Positions 1 to 7,372 of a stretch of DNA of 11,556 nucleotides are shown piece by piece. Position 1 is the first letter of the stretch, and each line of letters starts with the position of its first letter. The DNA lies in IMG/VR virus record IMGVR_UViG_648276659_000002, positions 1-11,556 of that record; one strand, given 5' to 3'. Under the pieces are notes generated by a model that saw nothing but the letters and a program-made list of their open reading frames with translations, was not told the origin of the DNA and made no database searches. The DNA comes from a virus. Taxonomy: Duplodnaviria; Heunggongvirae; Uroviricota; Caudoviricetes. The translations under genes were made by a program, and so were the position numbers.

Positions 1-28
1 AAAAAAACCCCCGGGCGGGGGGGCGGGG
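1..28 (-). terminator. Rho-independent terminator downstream of the 332-aa ORF
   Basis: Read on the minus strand: a 5-bp C/G stem (plus 8-12 pairing with 17-21) around a 4-nt loop, followed by T7 (complement of A1-7). It lies directly after the stop codon at 36-38. Confidence 0.6.
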
Positions 29-35
29 ATGAGGA

Positions 36-1034
36 TTATGTTATCTCTTTGACATAAAGTATTATCGCGGACTTTATTTCACCATCTAGTTCTTTTGCGT
101 TGATTGACAAATGAACTGGTTTTCTATCCCACTCAGCTTGCTGAAGAGCTTTTTTATGCTCGGATGCGTCGAGAAAAACATCTTGTACTATGCACGATAT
201 TCTTAGATCGGAGTCAACATTTCTCACTTGCACTTTGAAGCTCTCTGGATCAGTGGAGTCAACCTTTTCAATGCGATAATTTCCATCAAGGCGGATCTCC
301 ATTGATTTCCGCCTTGCATTTGTAGTGAGGGTTTTGGATAGATCTGCATCCAATACAACGCCATCAATCTGAGCTGTATCAGCCTTGACAAATGATTTAA
401 CTATGTCGGTTTTTGCGTCATGAGCAAGTCTTTCCATGTTGTCTAGCTTGGGTTTTTCGCTAATAATCTGAGTCAATAATTCACTTCGTTTTGTTTCCTG
501 CTCAGACATGAAGCGCATGGTCGCAAGGTGTTCACGCTCAGACTCGCTTTTTACTTCTGCCATGCGAATCTCTTTGCGGTCTTCTAGATATTTTTTGAAT
601 AGGACGACGCCGCCCCATATAAGAGCGACCCCTAAAACTGTAATAACGATCTCTTGAGGGCCCACTTTACTCACCGCAGTTTGTATAACCTCACCCATGA
701 ACCCATCCATATTAACTTCTATCAAGGACGAGCCATTCTCAACATTCACCTGAATTTCGATAGCTTCCTTCTCTTCTTTTGAAAGCTTTCTTGGGTCAGG
801 AACTCCGTACTTTAACAATGCATAAGCTCGGTTTATTTGGGCCTGCATTTCAACAAAACCCTTCATGACAGAAGGAGTCAAACTGCCATGAAATTTGTCA
901 CCAGTAAGACGGAAGGTTAAGTTAGGCCACCCTTCAAATGATATTCCATCAGGAAGATCTTGCCCAGCGATGTACATCTCAACAAAACGCAAAGCATCTT
1001 CTTCGGAATGAATAACCGCCGTGCTGATTTCCAA
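36..1034 (-). CDS. Hypothetical membrane-spanning protein in the rexAB-equivalent position (candidate superinfection-exclusion / abortive-infection factor)
   Basis: 332-codon ORF co-oriented with and 121 bp downstream of cI. The listed start is TTG at 1032-1034, preceded by AGAGG 7 nt upstream; an alternative ATG is at 975-977. One central hydrophobic helix (IVITVLGVALIWGGVVLF) is flanked by charged, coiled-coil-like stretches. GC is visibly lower than in neighbouring genes. No family recognised. Confidence 0.7.
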   Translation of the reverse strand: MEISTAVIHSEEDALRFVEMYIAGQDLPDGISFEGWPNLTFRLTGDKFHGSLTPSVMKGFVEMQAQINRAYALLKYGVPDPRKLSKEEKEAIEIQVNVENGSSLIEVNMDGFMGEVIQTAVSKVGPQEIVITVLGVALIWGGVVLFKKYLEDRKEIRMAEVKSESEREHLATMRFMSEQETKRSELLTQIISEKPKLDNMERLAHDAKTDIVKSFVKADTAQIDGVVLDADLSKTLTTNARRKSMEIRLDGNYRIEKVDSTDPESFKVQVRNVDSDLRISCIVQDVFLDASEHKKALQQAEWDRKPVHLSINAKELDGEIKSAIILYVKEIT

Positions 1035-1155
1035 GACTAAGCCTCTATAATTATTAATAATTTCAAATGATTGCTGTTTTTATTAGGAGACATTTAGCCA
1101 TTCATCACCCAAACGTCTCTTCAGGCCACTGGTTACCAGCTATGTGACGATGAAG

Positions 1156-1863
1156 TCACGAACTTTTCAGCCATTCCCTTGCCTCGATGTCATCCAGATG
1201 GCGAGACTGCTTCAGAATACCAGCAACATACTCCACCTTTGCTACTTGATGATAAGGCAACGTTATTGGCCTGTGGTCCTGGTTGATGCTTGTAAATTGG
1301 TATTCTCCATCTCTGTCATAGCCAAGAACCTTAATCATGTTGTGTCCTTCAACGGTTCTGACAAACACCTCATCACCCGGGAATACTTTGGTGTTAGGCT
1401 CAATGAGTACATATTCTCCTGATTTTATTCTGGGCCACATGCTGTCTCCTTTCACACGAAGACCAAAGGCATCTGGATCATCGCTATAAATCTTGAGCCA
1501 CCCATCGCGCTCTTCGGTCATCTCGATGGCACCATCAACACCAAGAATTGCCTCACCAACCACGCGCACTAACCCTTTTTTTAATTTGCCAACAAATGAA
1601 AGAGTATCTTCATCATTCGCTCCATTTAACGAAGTGCCGTGCTGAAGCCACACAACATCAACGTTTAGAAATTTCGCAAGCGCATTCATTTTTTCCTGAC
1701 GTGGTAAAGACTCAGCATTAAACCATTTGCTAACGCCTTTGGACGAAAGAGAAAGGGCGCGGGCTATGGCCATTCCCCTACCATGTTCATCAAGACCAGC
1801 TTCTTTACAGGCTTGCGCTAGCCGCTGGGCGAATTCTTTGCGCACTTTTTCATTCTGAACCAT
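1156..1863 (-). CDS. cI: CI-type prophage repressor (N-terminal HTH, C-terminal S24 LexA-like autopeptidase domain)
   Basis: 235 aa. HTH-like segment (GMAIARALSLSSKGVSKW) and C-terminal GDSMWP...K motif typical of the S24 Ser-Lys dyad. Divergent from cro across an operator region. ATG at 1861-1863. Confidence 0.9.
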   Translation of the reverse strand: MVQNEKVRKEFAQRLAQACKEAGLDEHGRGMAIARALSLSSKGVSKWFNAESLPRQEKMNALAKFLNVDVVWLQHGTSLNGANDEDTLSFVGKLKKGLVRVVGEAILGVDGAIEMTEERDGWLKIYSDDPDAFGLRVKGDSMWPRIKSGEYVLIEPNTKVFPGDEVFVRTVEGHNMIKVLGYDRDGEYQFTSINQDHRPITLPYHQVAKVEYVAGILKQSRHLDDIEAREWLKSS

Positions 1864-1941
1864 GAGTACGATACTAAAGCACTTGCAAAAACTTTCAGTT
1901 CAATCATAATGCGTACTGAAAGTACGAAAAAGGATATCCAC
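1864..1941. promoter_or_regulatory. OR-like tripartite operator with divergent pRM and pR
   Basis: Three dyad-symmetric sites about 24 bp apart: AGTACGATACT (1865-1875), ACTTTCAGT core (1891-1899) and CGTACTGAAAGTACG (1912-1926). Rightward pR: -35 TTGCAA 1883-1888, -10 CATAAT 1905-1910. Leftward pRM: -10 TAGTAT (complement of 1871-1876) about 7 nt from the cI ATG, implying a leaderless cI mRNA as in lambda. Confidence 0.65.
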
Positions 1942-2635: not shown

Positions 2636-2782
2636 ATGACAAAACAACTCAGTCCTTACCAGGACAAAATTCACAAACACATACTACGTGATCGCTTCCT
2701 GTCCAGCTTCAAGCAGCCTGGTCGATTCCGGGCTGAGTTGGAAAAAGTGAAGCTGATGCAGAAGGAGAAAGGTCATGAGTAA
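2636..2782 (+). CDS. Small hypothetical protein (48 aa) between cII and O
   Basis: ATG 2636 preceded by AGGAG with a 5-nt spacer. Its last codons overlap the start of O by 8 nt. Below the size cut-off of the supplied ORF track. Confidence 0.35.
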
Positions 2783-3635
2783 TCTTGCAACCGTAACACA
2801 TTTAAGGCCTTCACAACGGCCTGTGGAGCGTCGTGTGGCAGAAGTTGAAGATGGTTATACCCGTCTTGCAAATGCCCTGTATGAAGAGCTTATCGGCGCA
2901 GATTTAACAAAAAATCAGAGTAAGGTTGCCCACGCCATATGCCGTAAAACATACGGATACGGTAAAAAGATGGATCGCATCTCTGATAGTCAGTTAGCTC
3001 AAATTACCAGGCTGCCAAGACAGAAGGTAAACAAGGCCAAGAATGAGCTTATCGCGATGAAGGTAATCCTTCGCGAAGGCCAGCAAATCGGGCCTAACAA
3101 GAACATCGAGGAATGGCAAATCGAAGGGTGTCACTACTCTGGTGATAATGTCACTGCATTGGTGACAAAAAGTGTCACCAAAACGGTGACAGCGCTGTCA
3201 CCAAAACAGGGACACACAAAAGAAACTATTACAAAAGAAAAAAGAAATAATAAAAACACTATGTCCGAAAGTGTTCGGACGGAGTGTGAAAAAACTCCTG
3301 ACCGTCACGAAGAAACCGACAAGGCATTCGAGGAAATATTCTGGTGTGCAGGCATGCGGAAAGCCGGGAAGAAAAACGCAGCTTCAGCATTCAGAACACA
3401 GTTCAGGGAATGGCGTAAAACTACCAGGGGGACGGCAAGCGAGTTTGCCACGATGCTGGCAGAAGACATCGCATGCAGGAATGGTAAGCAGTTCGGATTC
3501 GACAGGTTGTTACCATCGAGCTACTTGAACGGTCAGCGCTGGAACGACGAAAAGCCAGAAACCATTCAACCACAATCCAAACCATCATCCGCAATCACCG
3601 TATCGAAAACTGGCTACGTGTTTTTCGACAGGTGA
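2775..3635 (+). CDS. O: Replication initiator protein O (iteron-binding)
   Basis: 286 aa. N-terminal domain matches lambda O as recalled (DDGY.RL...GADLTK.Q.KV...RKTYG..K.MDRI.DSQL..IT.LP). Strong RBS AAGGAGAAAGG. Origin iterons lie inside the gene. Confidence 0.9.
3128..3262. repeat. Replication origin: four about 20-bp iterons plus an AT-rich tract inside the O gene
   Basis: Iterons begin near 3128, 3149, 3172 and 3195, each TGTCAC(C)-N5/6-GGTGA(C/T)A, with the fourth arm degenerate. They are followed by an A-rich tract at 3219-3262, the lambda ori arrangement. Confidence 0.7.
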
Positions 3636-3638
3636 ACC

Positions 3639-3746
3639 ATGAAATCAAAAATCAAATCGCTACTGGTCGCTGGTTATAACCACGGCTGGTTAAGTATTTC
3701 GTTTGTCGATTTCTGGTTTAAAAATCTCAATCTGAGGGAATCATGA
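3639..3746 (+). CDS. Small hypothetical ORF (35 aa) coupled to the primase-helicase gene
   Basis: ATG 3639 preceded by AGGTG. Its stop overlaps the downstream start as ATGA at 3743-3746. Not in the ORF track because of size. Confidence 0.25.
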   Translation: MKSKIKSLLVAGYNHGWLSISFVDFWFKNLNLRES

Positions 3747-5623
3747 GGCCAAGTGAACTTAGCGACCTGCTTTGGGCGCAGGTTGACAGGGTGGCTCCGC
3801 ACCTGTTGCCAAATGGCAAGAAAGAGGGGCATGAGTGGGTTGCCGGTAACGTCAACGGTGACAAGGGAAACAGCCTTAAGGTCAACCTTAGCGGCAAGAA
3901 AAAATGGGCTGATTTCGCTGAGGGAGACGGCGGTGACATGCTTGATTTGTGGATGGCATGTCGTGGAATTAACCTGCATCAGGCTATGCAGGAAGCGAAA
4001 GCATTTCTCGGTATCAAGGATGACGATCACCATTTCGATGCCAGACGTGAGAAGAAATTCTCCAGACCTGATCGCAAGAAAATCGCCCGCTACGTTACCA
4101 GAACAGAATCCCATCTTGAGTACCTGCAATCGCGTGGCATATCGCCAGAAATCGTAAAGCGCTACGAGGTTGTCAGCGGCAAGGTGTGGAATGGAGAGCG
4201 GGAACTAGATGCTCTGGTGATTCCGTACAAACGCGATGGTGAGTTGTTGCAGGTCAAGCGAATCAGCACTGAGCGCCCGGACGGGAAGAAAGTCATTATG
4301 GCAGAAGGTGATTGCGAACCTTGCCTGTTCGGATGGCAGGCTCTGGACGCTGGCGTGAGGGCGGTTGTGCTTTGCGAAGGCGAAATTGATTGTATGAGCT
4401 ATGCGCAATACGGCATCTCGGCGTTATCCGTGCCGTTTGGTGGCGGGAAAGGCGCTAAGCAACAGTGGATTGAGTTTGAGTATCACAACCTCGACAGGTT
4501 TGAGGAAATATTCATCTCGATGGACGTTGATGATGTTGGTCGTGAAGCCGCAAGGGAAATCGCAAGCCGACTCGGTGAACATCGTTGCCGTCTTGTTACT
4601 CTGCCGTACAAAGACATCAACGAATGCCTGATGAACGGTGTTACCGAGGATGAAATCTGGCAGTACATCGGCACGGCATCCTACTTCGATCCTGAAGAAC
4701 TCTACAGCGCGCGAGAGTTTTACCAGGACACTATCAACGCTTTCTACGGCAAGCAGCAATATCTGTTTAATCCACCGTGGGAATCTCTGGCAGATAAATT
4801 CCAGTTCCGTGAGGCAGAGTTGACGCTGGTCAATGGTGTGAACGGTCACGGAAAAACGGAGGTTGTCGGGCATATGGCACTTGAGGCAATGCGTCAGGGT
4901 GTGAAGACGTGCATCGCGTCACTTGAGCTGAAGCCTGGTATTCTCCTTAAGCGCCTTACCCGTCAGGCGACGTGCTGCAAGATGCCGCCAGTGCTGGAAA
5001 TTGACTCTGCATTTAAATTTTATGACGAAAGACTTTGGGTGTTTGGCCTGACCGGAACGGCGAAAGCCGACAGGCTGATCGAAATATTCGACTACGCTCG
5101 CCGCCGATACGGGATCCAGTTATTCATCATCGACAGCCTGATGAAATGTGGCATAGGCGACGATGACTATAACGGGCAGAAGGCGTTTGTTGACTCGATT
5201 TGCGACTTCAAAAACAAAACAAACTCCCACGTCATTCTCGTTACTCACTCGCGAAAAGGAGACAGCGAAGAAAAACCAACCGGGAAAATGGACGTAAAAG
5301 GCTCTGGAGCGATAACAGACCTGACAGACAACCTTTTCATCATCTGGCGTAACAAGGCTCGCGAGAGAGCGTTACAGAGAGTTCAGAGTGGTGAAAAGAT
5401 GTCAGAGAAGGACGAACAGCTACTGGCGTCTCCTGCATCTGTTTTGATGCTTGAAAAACAACGTAACGGCGAAGGTTGGGAAGGTGGTGTCCCGTTGTTC
5501 CTTGACGAGCAATCGCACCAGTTCCTGCAACTTGAATCAGGATCGCCATATAGCTACATCGCCAATATGCCGAAATCGGAATATGACGAGGCGTGGCGAC
5601 AGGAAAACGTGACGGAGTATTAA
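3743..5623 (+). CDS. Bifunctional DNA primase / replicative helicase (zinc-binding N-terminus, TOPRIM, SF4 DnaB-like ATPase)
   Basis: 626 aa. N-terminal W.DFA.G.GGD..DL motif, TOPRIM-like acidic motifs (LCEGEIDC, SMDVDDVG), then Walker A GVNGHGKTE and Walker B-like FIIDSLM. RBS GAGGG. Confidence 0.88.
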   Translation: MRPSELSDLLWAQVDRVAPHLLPNGKKEGHEWVAGNVNGDKGNSLKVNLSGKKKWADFAEGDGGDMLDLWMACRGINLHQAMQEAKAFLGIKDDDHHFDARREKKFSRPDRKKIARYVTRTESHLEYLQSRGISPEIVKRYEVVSGKVWNGERELDALVIPYKRDGELLQVKRISTERPDGKKVIMAEGDCEPCLFGWQALDAGVRAVVLCEGEIDCMSYAQYGISALSVPFGGGKGAKQQWIEFEYHNLDRFEEIFISMDVDDVGREAAREIASRLGEHRCRLVTLPYKDINECLMNGVTEDEIWQYIGTASYFDPEELYSAREFYQDTINAFYGKQQYLFNPPWESLADKFQFREAELTLVNGVNGHGKTEVVGHMALEAMRQGVKTCIASLELKPGILLKRLTRQATCCKMPPVLEIDSAFKFYDERLWVFGLTGTAKADRLIEIFDYARRRYGIQLFIIDSLMKCGIGDDDYNGQKAFVDSICDFKNKTNSHVILVTHSRKGDSEEKPTGKMDVKGSGAITDLTDNLFIIWRNKARERALQRVQSGEKMSEKDEQLLASPASVLMLEKQRNGEGWEGGVPLFLDEQSHQFLQLESGSPYSYIANMPKSEYDEAWRQENVTEY

Positions 5624-5791
5624 ATGACCATCTACATCACTGAGCTAATAGCAGGGTTATCGTTACTAATGGTTCTTACTGTATATATTATTAAGTATAT
5701 TCTTTATGCGAATAAAAAAAACCAATTGATCACGATGAGCTTCTGTCAACATTATCATATGACTCAGAAACAGGAATATTTAAATGGCTAA
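5624..5791 (+). CDS. Possible small membrane peptide (55 aa); competes with the HNH N-terminal region
   Basis: ATG 5624 immediately after the helicase stop, with GGAG 6 nt upstream. Encodes one hydrophobic helix (IYITELIAGLSLLMVLTVYIIKYILY). Overlaps the frameshifted HNH reading frame in AT-rich DNA, so it may be spurious. Confidence 0.25.
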   Translation: MTIYITELIAGLSLLMVLTVYIIKYILYANKKNQLITMSFCQHYHMTQKQEYLNG

Positions 5792-6318
5792 AAACAAATT
5801 CAGTAGTAAGAGTAAAAGGTAGTATTGCTGGAGGTGTTAGTGGTGGTTATATATGCATTAGCATAAATAATGTTTTGTATTATGCGCATAGGCTTGCTTG
5901 GTTCTATGTATACAAAAAATGGCCTCCTAAGTTTATTGATCATGTAAATGGGAACAGACTTGACAATAGGATTTCAAATCTAAGACTGGCAACAGAGGAG
6001 CAGAATGCAAGAAACATTGTAGGTAATAGGTTAAACACATCCGGTGCGATTGGAGTGTCTTGGGATAAGACAACTGGCAGGTGGAAGTCTTATGTTGGTT
6101 ATAAAAATAAGACAATATCGTTAGGGTATTTCGATAGCAAAGAAGATGCAGCATTCATAGCAGCACTAGCAAGAAAGAAACTATATGGAACTTATGCGAG
6201 TAAAGCACTTAATTGCGAGCATGAGCTTTTATCTCAATTTAATAATGATGAGGATAAACTTGCGGAATATCTTAAGGAAAAATCTAAAAGGACTCGAAAG
6301 CGTGTTAAAAAAAGATAA
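5706..6318 (+). pseudogene. HNH-AP2 endonuclease, copy 1, disrupted by a frameshift in an A8 homopolymer
   Basis: The track ORF (5875-6318) starts at TTG and lacks the N-terminal region. The same frame is open back to 5716 and encodes the conserved N-terminal part (YDSETGIFKW...GGYICI). ATG 5706 is one base out of frame across the A8 run at 5714-5721; A7 would restore a full-length protein of about 200 aa. Motifs HRLAW...DH.NG...N...NLR are followed by an AP2-like segment. Confidence 0.55.
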
Positions 6319-6350
6319 AGGCCTGCTGGTAATCGCAGGCCTTTTTATTT
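6319..6350 (+). terminator. Rho-independent terminator after HNH copy 1
   Basis: AGGCCTGC (6319-6326) pairs with GCAGGCCT (6335-6342) around an 8-nt loop, followed by TTTTTATTT. Confidence 0.7.
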
Positions 6351-6365
6351 GGGGGAGAGTAAATC

Positions 6366-6572
6366 GTGGCTGAGTTTATGCTCGTCGCACTCAAATGCGT
6401 TGGCGTTGGATGGATTCTTCTGACGTTTTTTATTGTTCTGCATAGCTACATTCGTCTTGTGAATGACGGTAAAGACCCATGGTATACGTTGTTTGGCGCT
6501 GCATTTGTCTGGGTGATTATCGGTGTTATGCCTGTCGCTGTAGCAAAAATGGCGTGGCGTTTTGTTAGTTGA
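6366..6572 (+). CDS. Small hypothetical membrane protein (two predicted TM helices)
   Basis: 68 aa, GTG start preceded by GGGGGAGAG. Two hydrophobic stretches. Sits just upstream of ninB. Confidence 0.45.
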   Translation: MAEFMLVALKCVGVGWILLTFFIVLHSYIRLVNDGKDPWYTLFGAAFVWVIIGVMPVAVAKMAWRFVS

Positions 6573-6579
6573 GGTAACG

Positions 6580-7026
6580 ATGAAGCCAATATACATGCTT
6601 CGCAACGAAGCAATCAGAAACAACGCCATAGACGCAATACTCTCACTTCCGATCGACGACAAGTCACCTCACGAAGTCCACATTAAAGAACCAAAGCGGA
6701 GCAATCCTCAAAACCGCCTTATGTGGGCGTTATTGCAGGACGTATCGCGTCAGGTGCTCTGGCATGGAGAGAGACTTGCGCCGGAGGACTGGAAAGATCT
6801 GTTCACTGCCCTGTGGCTTAAGACCAAAAAACTGGAGCAACGAAGTGCGCCTGGTATCGACGGTGGCGTTGTTATGCTTGGCGTGCGTACCAGCAAAATG
6901 CGAAAGGCCAGCATGACTGAGCTTATCGAAATCATGTTCTGGTTCGGCTCAGAGCGCAACGTGCGGTGGAGTGATGACTCCCGGCGAGAGTATGAATGGT
7001 CACAACGAACAGGGAGGGCGGCATGA
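6580..7026 (+). CDS. ninB: NinB (Orf) recombination protein
   Basis: Collinear with lambda NinB as recalled (...QN..W..L.DVSRQV.WHG..L....WK..FTA...SD..R...EW..R.G.RAA). ATG 6580 with GAGG upstream; the track start at 6562 is TTG. Confidence 0.88.
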
Positions 7027-7205
7027 GGCGACAGCGACGAAGTTTCACCGACATAATCTGTGAAAACTGCAATTACCTTCCAACGAAACGTTCCAGAAAT
7101 AAACCCAGGCCAATCCCAAAAGAATCTGACGTTAAAACCTTCAATTACACGGCTCACCTGTGGGATATCCGGTGGCTAAGACATCGTGCGAGGAAAACAA
7201 GGTGA
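7023..7205 (+). CDS. ninE: NinE
   Basis: 60 aa starting MRRQRRS, matching the lambda NinE pattern as recalled. ATG overlaps the ninB stop (ATGA); RBS AGGGAGGG. Confidence 0.78.
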
Positions 7206-7372
7206 TTGACCAAAATCGAAGTTACGAACAAGAAAGCGTCGAGCGAGCTTTAACGTGCGCTAACTGCGGTCAGAAGCTGCATGTGCTGGAAGTTCACGTG
7301 TGTGAGCTCTGCTGTGCAGAACTGATGAGCGATCCGAATAGCTCAATGTACGAGGAAGAAGACGATGGCTAA
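7202..7372 (+). CDS. ninF: NinF (CxxC zinc-ribbon-like)
   Basis: GTG 7202 overlaps the ninE stop (GTGA) with AGGAAA upstream. Product [27 protein letters not shown]... matches lambda NinF as recalled. Confidence 0.78.

What the first reader, a model, noticed from the sequence alone, without database searches (positions are those of the whole stretch)
1..1155. Unrecognised 332-aa membrane protein in the rexAB slot downstream of cI, with its own terminator
The gene is co-oriented with cI and separated from it by only 121 bp. It has a plausible SD (AGAGG) before a TTG start and ends at a strong intrinsic terminator (1-28). Its GC is visibly lower than the surrounding backbone, consistent with acquired cargo. 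The product has one central TM helix flanked by charged, coiled-coil-like segments and matches nothing I recognise (not RexA, RexB or SieB). In lambdoid prophages this slot typically carries lysogen-expressed exclusion or abortive-infection genes, which makes this the best candidate in the window for an undescribed single-gene defense function.
Basis: partly seen in the sequence, partly recalled or inferred. Interest (0 to 1): 0.8.

Follow-up and report, generated by a model that had tools for sequence, protein, structure and literature searches.

The report
Orphan membrane gene replacing rexAB
A real, well-conserved but uncharacterised gene sits just after the prophage repressor where phage lambda keeps its rexAB exclusion genes; context and predicted structure make it a good, untested candidate for a new single-gene anti-phage protein.

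Summary
ORF 36..1034(-) is a 332-aa gene with a TTG start and an AGAGG Shine-Dalgarno. It lies 121 bp after a 933W-type cI and ends at an intrinsic terminator.

It matches nothing named in Pfam, NCBIfam, PADLOC or PDB. It belongs to PHROG 6191 (unknown function), a family of at least 1,557 50%-identity clusters, nearly all 320-350 aa.

AlphaFold (pLDDT 87) gives four parts:
- a conserved 19-residue hydrophobic helix;
- a charged helical stalk;

The near-identical gene follows at least five repressor types, including lambda cI itself, so it literally replaces rexAB. In 933W the same slot holds stk. More distant homologues sit antisense between Q and the holin. Others sit next to a Type ISP restriction enzyme, a type VI retron, and a KilA-N defence candidate.

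The window is a recombinant at a 26-bp stretch (1107-1132), a fossil of the lambda cI 3' end.

Best reading: a lysogen-expressed, membrane-anchored phage-exclusion protein that resembles AbiP/PdpSau in architecture but is not homologous to PdpSau. The function is inferred, not shown.

The parts
1..28 (-). Intrinsic terminator closing the cI-cargo transcription unit. The G+C-rich hairpin is at 7-24 and the T-run at 1-6. It is the positional equivalent of 933W tM.
   Evidence: The terminator scan finds two overlapping calls here. 933W annotates tM at the same relative place. Sister loci L001 and L002 carry the 933W tM sequence (cccggcctcagcgccgggttttc) after the same gene, whereas the window has a variant hairpin.
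36..1034 (-). CDS of 332 aa with a TTG start and TAA stop at 36-38. It is identical to WP_000406300.1 and a member of PHROG 6191 (unknown function).
   Evidence: E=1.1e-137; 1,557 cluster representatives at E<=1e-3.
660..1034 (-). N-terminal alpha/beta domain, residues 1-125. Near-invariant residues are E11, W36-P37, G45, T53-P54, Q64, L84, E88, V98 and G101-S102-S103. The domain is net acidic.
597..653 (-). Conserved hydrophobic helix, residues 128-146 (EIVITVLGVALIWGGVVLF; family motif LGxAxxWGG). It is a predicted membrane anchor.
   Evidence: Kyte-Doolittle mean 2.33 and crude Hessa sum 0.5 kcal/mol. It is helical with pLDDT around 90. 56 of 58 members have more K+R in the 15 aa after the helix than before it (mean 4.3 against 1.5).
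384..596 (-). Charged helical stalk, residues 147-217.
   Evidence: AF2 helices 143-160, 164-171, 178-193 and 195-217. This is the least conserved segment, with 2.04 bits of column entropy.
39..302 (-). C-terminal OB-fold domain, residues 245-332. Conserved residues are G251, Y253, E301-W302-x-R304 and N312.
1042..1046 (-). Shine-Dalgarno AGAGG, 7 nt upstream of the TTG start.
   Evidence: Read directly from the sequence.
1107..1132 (-). 26-bp recombination junction CCAGTGGCCTGAAGAGACGTTTGGGT. It is a fossil of the 3' end of a lambda-type cI (codons ...QWPEETFG). To its right the window follows 933W; to its left it follows the lambda-immunity locus that carries the same cargo.
   Evidence: Three-way alignment. 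The L002 sequence shows a lambda-type cI ending in this stretch. Megablast limits are 1107-2400 to Stx phages and 22-1131 to lambda-type loci.
1156..1863 (-). cI repressor of 933W type, 235 aa, with HTH_3 and Peptidase_S24 domains. It is the upstream gene of the presumed operon.
   Evidence: The region is 96.5-96.8% identical to 933W and other Stx phages.
1871..1898 (-). Presumed maintenance promoter pM (pRM equivalent) driving cI and, by inference, the cargo gene. Coordinates are transferred from the 933W annotation and are good to about 1 nt.
   Evidence: The 933W record annotates pM at L094 4265-4292(-), and L094 position 3501 corresponds to window 1107. No sigma-70-like site and no terminator-like site were found on the minus strand in 1035-1155.

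Best explanation
The ORF is a genuine accessory gene (a 'moron') of a lambdoid prophage. It is a ~1.1-kb single-gene cassette in the cI-to-tM slot, which holds rexA-rexB in lambda and L0084-L0083-stk-L0081 in 933W.

Inferred expression: it is transcribed with cI from the maintenance promoter in lysogens and stops being transcribed when the prophage is induced.

Predicted product, in order:
- a conserved acidic N-terminal alpha/beta domain of unassigned fold;
- one hydrophobic helix with small-residue packing motifs;
- a charged helical stalk;
- a C-terminal OB-fold.

Charge bias predicts that the stalk and OB-fold face the cytoplasm.

Proposed function (inferred): phage exclusion in the lysogen. 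The stalk/OB module recognises a component of an infecting phage at the inner face of the membrane. More likely this is a protein or nucleoprotein than naked nucleic acid, because the OB domain is slightly acidic. The membrane helix then either oligomerises to collapse membrane potential (abortive infection, like RexB or PdpSau) or obstructs genome entry (superinfection exclusion).

Shown here: gene reality, family size, domain architecture, slot, cassette mobility, and neighbourhood with defence genes.

Inferred only: co-transcription with cI, membrane topology, any anti-phage activity, and the trigger.
For: Gene and family:
- Real, conserved gene. 122 homologues down to 29% identity; 1,557 cluster representatives, nearly all full-length at 320-350 aa.
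- No known family: Pfam, NCBIfam, PADLOC and PDB are all empty; only PHROG 6191, unknown function, matches.
- Confident structure (pLDDT 87, pTM 0.79) with a C-terminal OB-fold and an unmatched N-domain.
- Hydrophobic helix conserved, with a positive-inside bias in 56 of 58 members.

Slot and mobility:
- The >=98% identical gene lies 71-148 bp downstream of, and co-oriented with, 933W-type cI, lambda cI, hybrid repressors with a lambda C-terminal domain, and a 155-aa Gifsy-like repressor.
- The 933W record annotates this slot as part of the pM transcript, ended by tM.
- No promoter-like or terminator-like site lies between cI and the ORF.
- The recombination junction is at 1107-1132.

Other contexts of homologues:
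- Right after an S24 repressor in Moraxella phage Mcat17.
- cI -> KilA-N protein (PADLOC candidate PDC-S22, 2e-124) -> homologue in a Pasteurellaceae prophage.
- Next to a complete type VI retron in Pasteurella phage Pmp14.
- Between a GmrSD fragment and a Type ISP restriction enzyme plus an AHH nuclease on an Oceanospirillaceae island.
- Antisense between Q and the holin in 21 non-redundant viral loci.

Literature:
- The cI-N region is a recognised hotspot that holds rexAB and bstA (PMC8585504).
- Membrane-anchored OB-like single-gene Abi proteins exist: AbiP and PdpSau (PMC13064643 and PMC10127798).
Against: - There are no experimental data of any kind.
- No hit to any PADLOC-DB v2 defence model. 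The accession is absent from the searched literature and from the DefensePredictor supplements.
- The predicted N-out topology would need a 127-aa N-terminal domain to cross the membrane without a signal peptide, which is unusual.
- AlphaFold's compact model (pTM 0.79) suggests the N- and C-terminal parts touch. So does the drop in N-domain confidence when it is modelled alone (about 88 to 78). Contact between them is incompatible with a membrane-spanning helix between them.
- The OB domain is net acidic, which is atypical for nucleic-acid binders.
- Some homologues sit in ordinary chromosomal surroundings (Caballeronia).
- Others lie co-oriented just upstream of lysis genes in Mu-like phages, which does not argue specifically for defence.
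Confidence: 0.5

Rival explanations
1. It is a lysogenic-conversion membrane protein that benefits the host in some way unrelated to phage exclusion, such as envelope or stress physiology or host interaction, as bor and lom do in lambda.
Against: There is no signal peptide, and the charge bias puts the OB domain in the cytoplasm. The family recurs next to restriction, retron and PDC-S22 genes. The cI-N slot is best known for exclusion genes.
Confidence: 0.2
2. It is a phage life-cycle factor rather than a host-protecting one. For example, it could be a membrane-tethered regulator of lysis timing, induction or lysogeny maintenance for the carrying phage.
For: In two unrelated Mu-like phages the homologue lies in an operon that starts with an HTH protein. 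In one of them it sits immediately upstream of holin and SLT endolysin genes. In Salmonella and Pectobacterium prophages it abuts Q and the holins.
Against: In the Q-holin slot it is on the opposite strand to the late operon. It is present in only 9 of 5,426 complete E. coli genomes, while hundreds carry the same 933W-type cI junction without it. The same gene is combined with unrelated repressors, replication modules and lysis modules. It also occurs outside prophages.
Confidence: 0.12
3. The hydrophobic helix is not a transmembrane segment. On this reading the protein is a soluble or peripheral, probably oligomeric, cytoplasmic protein whose helix is buried. It could still be a defence sensor, with the helix exposed only on activation.
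For: AF2 gives one compact, confident model (pTM 0.79). The N-domain loses confidence when modelled alone. DSSP breaks the helix at G141-G142. Many family members are only borderline hydrophobic, with Kyte-Doolittle means of 1.3-1.6. N-tail translocation of 127 aa without a signal peptide is unusual (general knowledge).
Against: 18 consecutive apolar or small residues with no amphipathic pattern are conserved across the family. The positive-inside bias is seen in 56 of 58 members.
Confidence: 0.15

Closest known systems
Lambda RexA/RexB (abortive infection, cI-rexA-rexB operon)
   Same: The genomic slot and orientation are identical. In E. coli prophages with lambda-type cI this gene directly follows cI where rexAB would be. 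It is presumed to be expressed from pRM in lysogens and has a membrane component.
   Different: One gene instead of two. There is no Pfam match of any kind at E<=1 apart from sub-threshold aRib. It has one hydrophobic helix, whereas RexB is polytopic (general knowledge).
933W Stk locus (L0084-L0083-stk-L0081-tM downstream of 933W cI)
   Same: Same repressor (about 97% identical) and same slot, closed by a terminator at the tM position.
   Different: The cargo is entirely different, with no kinase domain. Similarity to 933W stops at window position 1107.
BstA (Salmonella BTP1 and relatives; single-gene Abi downstream of cI)
   Same: Both are single genes downstream of, and co-oriented with, the prophage repressor. 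Both are widespread in Gram-negative prophages and also occur outside them (PMC8585504). In one Pasteurellaceae prophage a KilA-N protein (PDC-S22) and a homologue of this gene sit in tandem after cI.
   Different: This protein has no KilA-N domain. BstA is not described as membrane-anchored in the passages read. No aba-like self-immunity element was looked for.
AbiP (Lactococcus) / PdpSau (S. aureus prophage 53) membrane-anchored OB-like Abi proteins
   Same: Single-gene systems with one hydrophobic anchor helix plus an OB-type domain predicted to be cytoplasmic. PdpSau is prophage-encoded and linked to membrane depolarisation on infection.
   Different: The anchor is N-terminal in AbiP and PdpSau but central here, and this protein has an extra 125-aa N-terminal domain. 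hhalign of the family profile against PdpSau gives probability 0.15%. The OB domain here is slightly acidic. The hosts are Gram-negative.
PHROG 6191
   Same: Full-length match at E=1.1e-137. This is the family the gene belongs to.
   Different: The PHROG has no functional annotation, so membership explains nothing about function.

Membership tests
PHROG 6191 (unknown function) | Full-length match to the family profile | tested here: met
   E=1.1e-137, residues 4-331 against profile positions 6-334 of 338.
RexA / RexB / SieB | Sequence match to the Pfam families for these proteins | tested here: not met
   A Pfam scan at E<=1 returned only a sub-threshold aRib hit (17.9 bits against a cut-off of 27). 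PADLOC returned 0 families.
BstA | [quoted passage not shown] | tested here: not met
BstA | Location downstream of, and co-oriented with, the prophage repressor | tested here: met
   This is a shared context, not evidence of homology.
933W Stk | Eukaryotic-like Ser/Thr protein kinase domain | tested here: not met
   No kinase family in the Pfam scan.
AbiP / PdpSau | Detectable sequence or profile homology | tested here: not met
   hhalign of A1 against PdpSau (phage 53 ORF016): probability 0.15%, 12 aligned columns.
AbiP / PdpSau | Single membrane-anchoring helix at the N-terminus | tested here: not met
   There is a single hydrophobic helix, but it lies at residues 128-146, not at the N-terminus.
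AbiP / PdpSau | OB-type domain on the cytoplasmic side | tested here: inconclusive
AbiP / PdpSau | Nucleic-acid binding and abortive-infection phenotype | not testable with these tools
   This needs EMSA and infection assays. The OB domain's net charge of about -2 does not favour non-specific nucleic-acid binding.
Known or candidate defence systems in PADLOC-DB v2.0.0 | Match to any of the 5,027 models | tested here: not met
   0 families at E<=1 for the query. Also 0 for three homologues.
OB-fold superfamily (structural) | Five-stranded closed beta-barrel with a helix between strands 3 and 4 | tested here: met

The most novel reading that the evidence does not exclude
This is the first recognised member of a large family (at least 1,500 50%-identity clusters across Gamma- and Betaproteobacteria and their phages) that forms a new class of single-gene anti-phage protein. 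It combines a previously unseen N-terminal fold, a membrane-inserting helix and an OB-fold sensor. It is carried as an interchangeable cassette in three classical lysogen-expressed prophage slots: cI-N, antisense between Q and the holin, and the repressor operon of Mu-like phages.
Probability: 0.4. Interest if true: 0.7.

Novelty: new variant of a known kind. Interest (0 to 1): 0.55.

Why it matters
The cI-N slot has already yielded RexAB, Stk and BstA. A fourth, unrelated occupant would be a cheap and well-motivated target for discovering a new exclusion mechanism. This one belongs to a family of more than a thousand clusters, has a confidently predicted but unclassified architecture, and is absent from current defence catalogues.

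The gene is small and stands alone. It occurs naturally behind lambda cI itself, so it can be tested directly in the best-understood phage-host system. The 26-bp junction also gives a clean example of how immunity-region cargo is swapped between lambdoid phages.

Tried and rejected
Searches that found nothing:
- Pfam, NCBIfam, PADLOC and PDB sequence searches.
- Foldseek against PDB: no hit at E<=1e-3.
- Rfam and tRNA scans of the window.
- Pfam on the few longer family members (P0155, P0188, P0209 and others): no fused domains.

Tools that could not be used:
- AFDB Foldseek was not installed.

Literature checks:
- The accession is absent from the full-text library and from the DefensePredictor supplements.
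- HepS (a HEPN protein, different Gifsy slot), Tab (83 aa) and SNIPE (a membrane-bound nuclease; outline read only, no sequence comparison run) were considered and set aside as unrelated.
- PdpSau homology was tested and rejected.

Other ideas dropped:
- The ~196-aa upstream neighbours in the two Mu-like phages are not homologous to each other, so no conserved partner gene was found.
- A single-sequence phmmer search with the window's cI was too insensitive to find other repressor types. It was replaced by a Pfam scan of the neighbouring ORFs.
- An own promoter in the 121-bp leader: none met the scan criteria, and none was seen by eye.

Full report
**1. The observation**

The window is the early region of a lambdoid prophage. 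Its genes, in order, are cI (1156-1863, minus strand; HTH_3 plus Peptidase_S24), cro, cII, an O-type initiator, a Toprim/DnaB-like primase-helicase, NinB, NinG, a Ser/Thr phosphatase, Q, a holin and DUF1327.

The ORF at 36-1034 (minus strand) is 332 aa and starts at TTG. That TTG is the first possible start in the frame. Homologues conserve residues 8-11, so no downstream start is plausible. RefSeq annotates the identical CDS as WP_000406300.1, 'hypothetical protein'.

AGAGG lies 7 nt upstream of the TTG. The gap to cI is 121 bp. A G+C-rich hairpin with a T-run occupies 1-24. No promoter-like or terminator-like site was found on the minus strand between cI and the ORF.

The GC argument is weak. 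The ORF is 42-44% GC, against 43-46% for the immunity genes and 47-52% for the replication genes.

**2. What the protein is**

Pfam, NCBIfam, PADLOC-DB v2 and the PDB sequence search give no usable match. The only named hit is PHROG 6191, unknown function, at E=1e-137.

The family is nevertheless large and coherent:
- 122 homologues down to 29% identity, from Enterobacterales, Pseudomonas, Pasteurellaceae, Moraxella, Oceanospirillaceae and Caballeronia.
- A profile search of 1.8 billion cluster representatives found 1,557 at E<=1e-3 and 602 at E<=1e-30. Nearly all are 320-350 aa and match end to end.
- Conservation is spread evenly over the whole length.
- The few longer members carry no extra Pfam domains.

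**3. Predicted structure**

AlphaFold2 with a 58-sequence alignment gives pLDDT 87 and pTM 0.79. The architecture is:
- residues 1-125: an alpha/beta domain;
- residues 126-217: helices, whose first part is the hydrophobic stretch 128-146;
- residues 220-229: a small hairpin;
- residues 245-330: a five-stranded barrel with a helix between strands 3 and 4.

**4. Is it a membrane protein?**

Evidence for a membrane helix:
- Residues 128-146 (EIVITVLGVALIWGGVVLF) have a Kyte-Doolittle mean of 2.33.
- An equivalent apolar, small-residue-rich helix (LGxAxxWGG) is the top hydrophobic window in 56 of 58 members.
- The 15 residues after it carry on average 4.3 K+R, against 1.5 before it. This holds in 56 of 58 members.
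- The N-terminal part is net acidic in 57 of 58 members.
- By the positive-inside rule this predicts N-out/C-in, which would put the stalk and OB-fold in the cytoplasm.

Caveats:
- A 127-aa N-terminal domain would have to cross the membrane without a signal peptide.
- The compact AF2 model, and the loss of N-domain confidence when it is modelled alone, hint that the two halves touch.
- Many members are only borderline hydrophobic.

Membrane anchoring is likely but unproven.

**5. Context of the near-identical gene**

The gene is rare. Only 9 of 5,426 complete E. coli genomes carry it, although hundreds share the neighbouring cI junction. No sequenced phage in the INPHARED set has it at the DNA level.

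Wherever the >=98% identical gene occurs, it lies 71-148 bp downstream of a repressor and is co-oriented with it. The repressor type varies:
- 933W-type cI (window, L001, L022, L024);
- lambda cI itself (L002, L018, L019, L023, L025);
- hybrids with another N-terminal domain and the lambda C-terminal domain (L020, L021);
- a 155-aa Gifsy-like HTH repressor in Salmonella (L026, L082-L088).

More divergent copies (48-86% identical) follow four further S24 repressors (L028, L029, L073, L076).

In phage 933W the same cI is followed by L0084-L0083-stk-L0081 and then tM. The record annotates tM as the terminator of the pM transcript. The gene therefore literally occupies the rexAB/stk slot.

A three-way alignment shows the window is a recombinant. 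To the right of a 26-bp segment (1107-1132, CCAGTGGCCTGAAGAGACGTTTGGGT) it follows 933W. To the left it follows the lambda-immunity locus. That segment is the last eight codons of lambda-type cI, and 933W also retains it.

In sister loci the gene is followed by the 933W tM sequence. In the window a variant hairpin sits in the same place. The terminator therefore belongs to the operon backbone, not to the cargo.

**6. Context of more distant homologues**

Phage and island contexts:
- Moraxella phage Mcat17: directly after an S24 repressor.
- A Pasteurellaceae prophage: cI, then a 283-aa KilA-N protein matching PADLOC candidate PDC-S22 (2e-124), then the homologue.
- Pasteurella phage Pmp14: directly after a complete type VI retron (HTH_VI plus RT_VI), near cI and a toxin-antitoxin pair.
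- An Oceanospirillaceae integrative island: between a GmrSD fragment and a Type ISP restriction enzyme plus an AHH nuclease.
- Salmonella, Pectobacterium and many IMG/VR contigs (about 60% identity group): convergent with Q, 13-16 bp apart, and divergent from the holins. This is antisense in the classical Q-S moron slot.
- Two Mu-like phages: in an operon starting with an HTH protein. In one of them it lies just before holin and SLT genes.
- Caballeronia: a lone chromosomal copy.

Pfam on the 63 immediate neighbours of the non-redundant viral loci found:

| Neighbour family | Count |
|---|---|
| Q antiterminator | 21 |
| S24 repressor | 8 |
| Phage_CI_repr | 2 |
| Holin | 7 |
| N peptide | 3 |

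No conserved partner gene was found.

**7. Interpretation**

The variable position, sporadic distribution and recombination between unrelated backbones mark this as accessory cargo, not a core phage function.

Both main slots give expression that is on in the lysogen and off, or opposed, during lytic growth. One is behind cI on the pM transcript. The other is antisense to the Q-dependent late transcript. That pattern fits a product useful only in lysogens. The cI-N region is a recognised hotspot that houses rexAB and bstA (PMC8585504).

With three independent adjacencies to defence or defence-candidate genes, the best-supported reading is a single-gene phage-exclusion protein.

The nearest analogues by architecture are AbiP and PdpSau. 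Each has one anchor helix plus an OB-like cytoplasmic domain. PdpSau is prophage-encoded and associated with membrane depolarisation (PMC13064643 and PMC10127798). However, the family profile shows no homology to PdpSau. The anchor here is central rather than N-terminal. There is an additional conserved N-domain. The OB domain is slightly acidic, which favours a protein ligand over non-specific nucleic-acid binding.

I put about 0.5 on a phage-exclusion role. I put much less on any particular mechanism, whether depolarisation or an entry block.

**8. Rivals**

- A conversion factor unrelated to phages (0.2).
- A life-cycle regulator of the carrying phage (0.12).
- A non-membrane reading of the hydrophobic helix (0.15). 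This rival concerns structure rather than function and is compatible with the defence reading, so the confidences are not exclusive.

Each has a stated refuting experiment.

**9. Novelty**

The kind of thing, a lysogen-expressed exclusion cargo behind the repressor, is well known. The protein family, its N-terminal fold and its domain combination are not in any catalogue I could query. I rate it a new variant of a known kind. Interest is moderate because everything about function is still inference.

Noticed in passing
window 5875-6318, 7365-7931, 10064-10576 (all + strand): Three separate HNH_3 plus AP2-domain genes, which look like homing endonucleases. They are scattered through the replication/nin region and downstream of Q. 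The first sits in a 33-41% GC patch at about 5400-6000.
   Followed up: partly
window 3743-5623 (+): The replication module pairs a lambda-O-type initiator (2775-3635) with a 626-aa Toprim/DnaB-like primase-helicase instead of lambda P. Sister locus L001, with the same cI and cargo, has O plus P. The cargo therefore travels independently of the replication module.
   Followed up: partly
window 1-28 compared with L001 5985-6010, L002 5985-6010 and L094 1390-1411: The window's terminator (ccccgcccccccgcccggggg followed by T7) differs from the tM hairpin (cccggcctcagcgccggg followed by ttttc). 933W and both sister loci carry the tM hairpin at the same position. It is unclear whether the window's poly-C/G version is a natural allele or an assembly artefact at a homopolymer, because the window ends here.
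   Followed up: partly
L017 (Pasteurella phage Pmp14) 4668-7032: A complete type VI retron is annotated in the record only as 'transcriptional regulator' and 'polymerase'. PADLOC scores are HTH_VI 2e-32 and RT_VI 2e-88. It is immediately followed by a 341-aa homologue of the gene under study, and a tRNA lies at 3812-3885. Whether the homologue is a third retron component or just a neighbour is open.
   Followed up: partly
L093 (Pasteurellaceae prophage) 5367-8002: A tandem arrangement: cI (S24), then a KilA-N protein matching PADLOC candidate PDC-S22 (2e-124), then the family member. A second KilA-N protein and a DUF4145 protein lie nearby. The cI-downstream region here looks like a small defence-candidate island.
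   Followed up: partly
L003-L006 (Oceanospirillaceae island) 6591-7586: A conserved 331-340-aa ORF with no Pfam or PADLOC hit sits directly upstream of the family member and is co-oriented with it. This is seen on all four island variants. No equivalent exists in the E. coli loci.
   Followed up: no
window 7846-8508 and 7365-7931: The mechanically called NinG ORF overlaps the preceding HNH-AP2 gene by 86 bp. The true NinG start is probably the internal Met ([11 protein letters not shown]...), since the Pfam match begins at residue 24.
   Followed up: no
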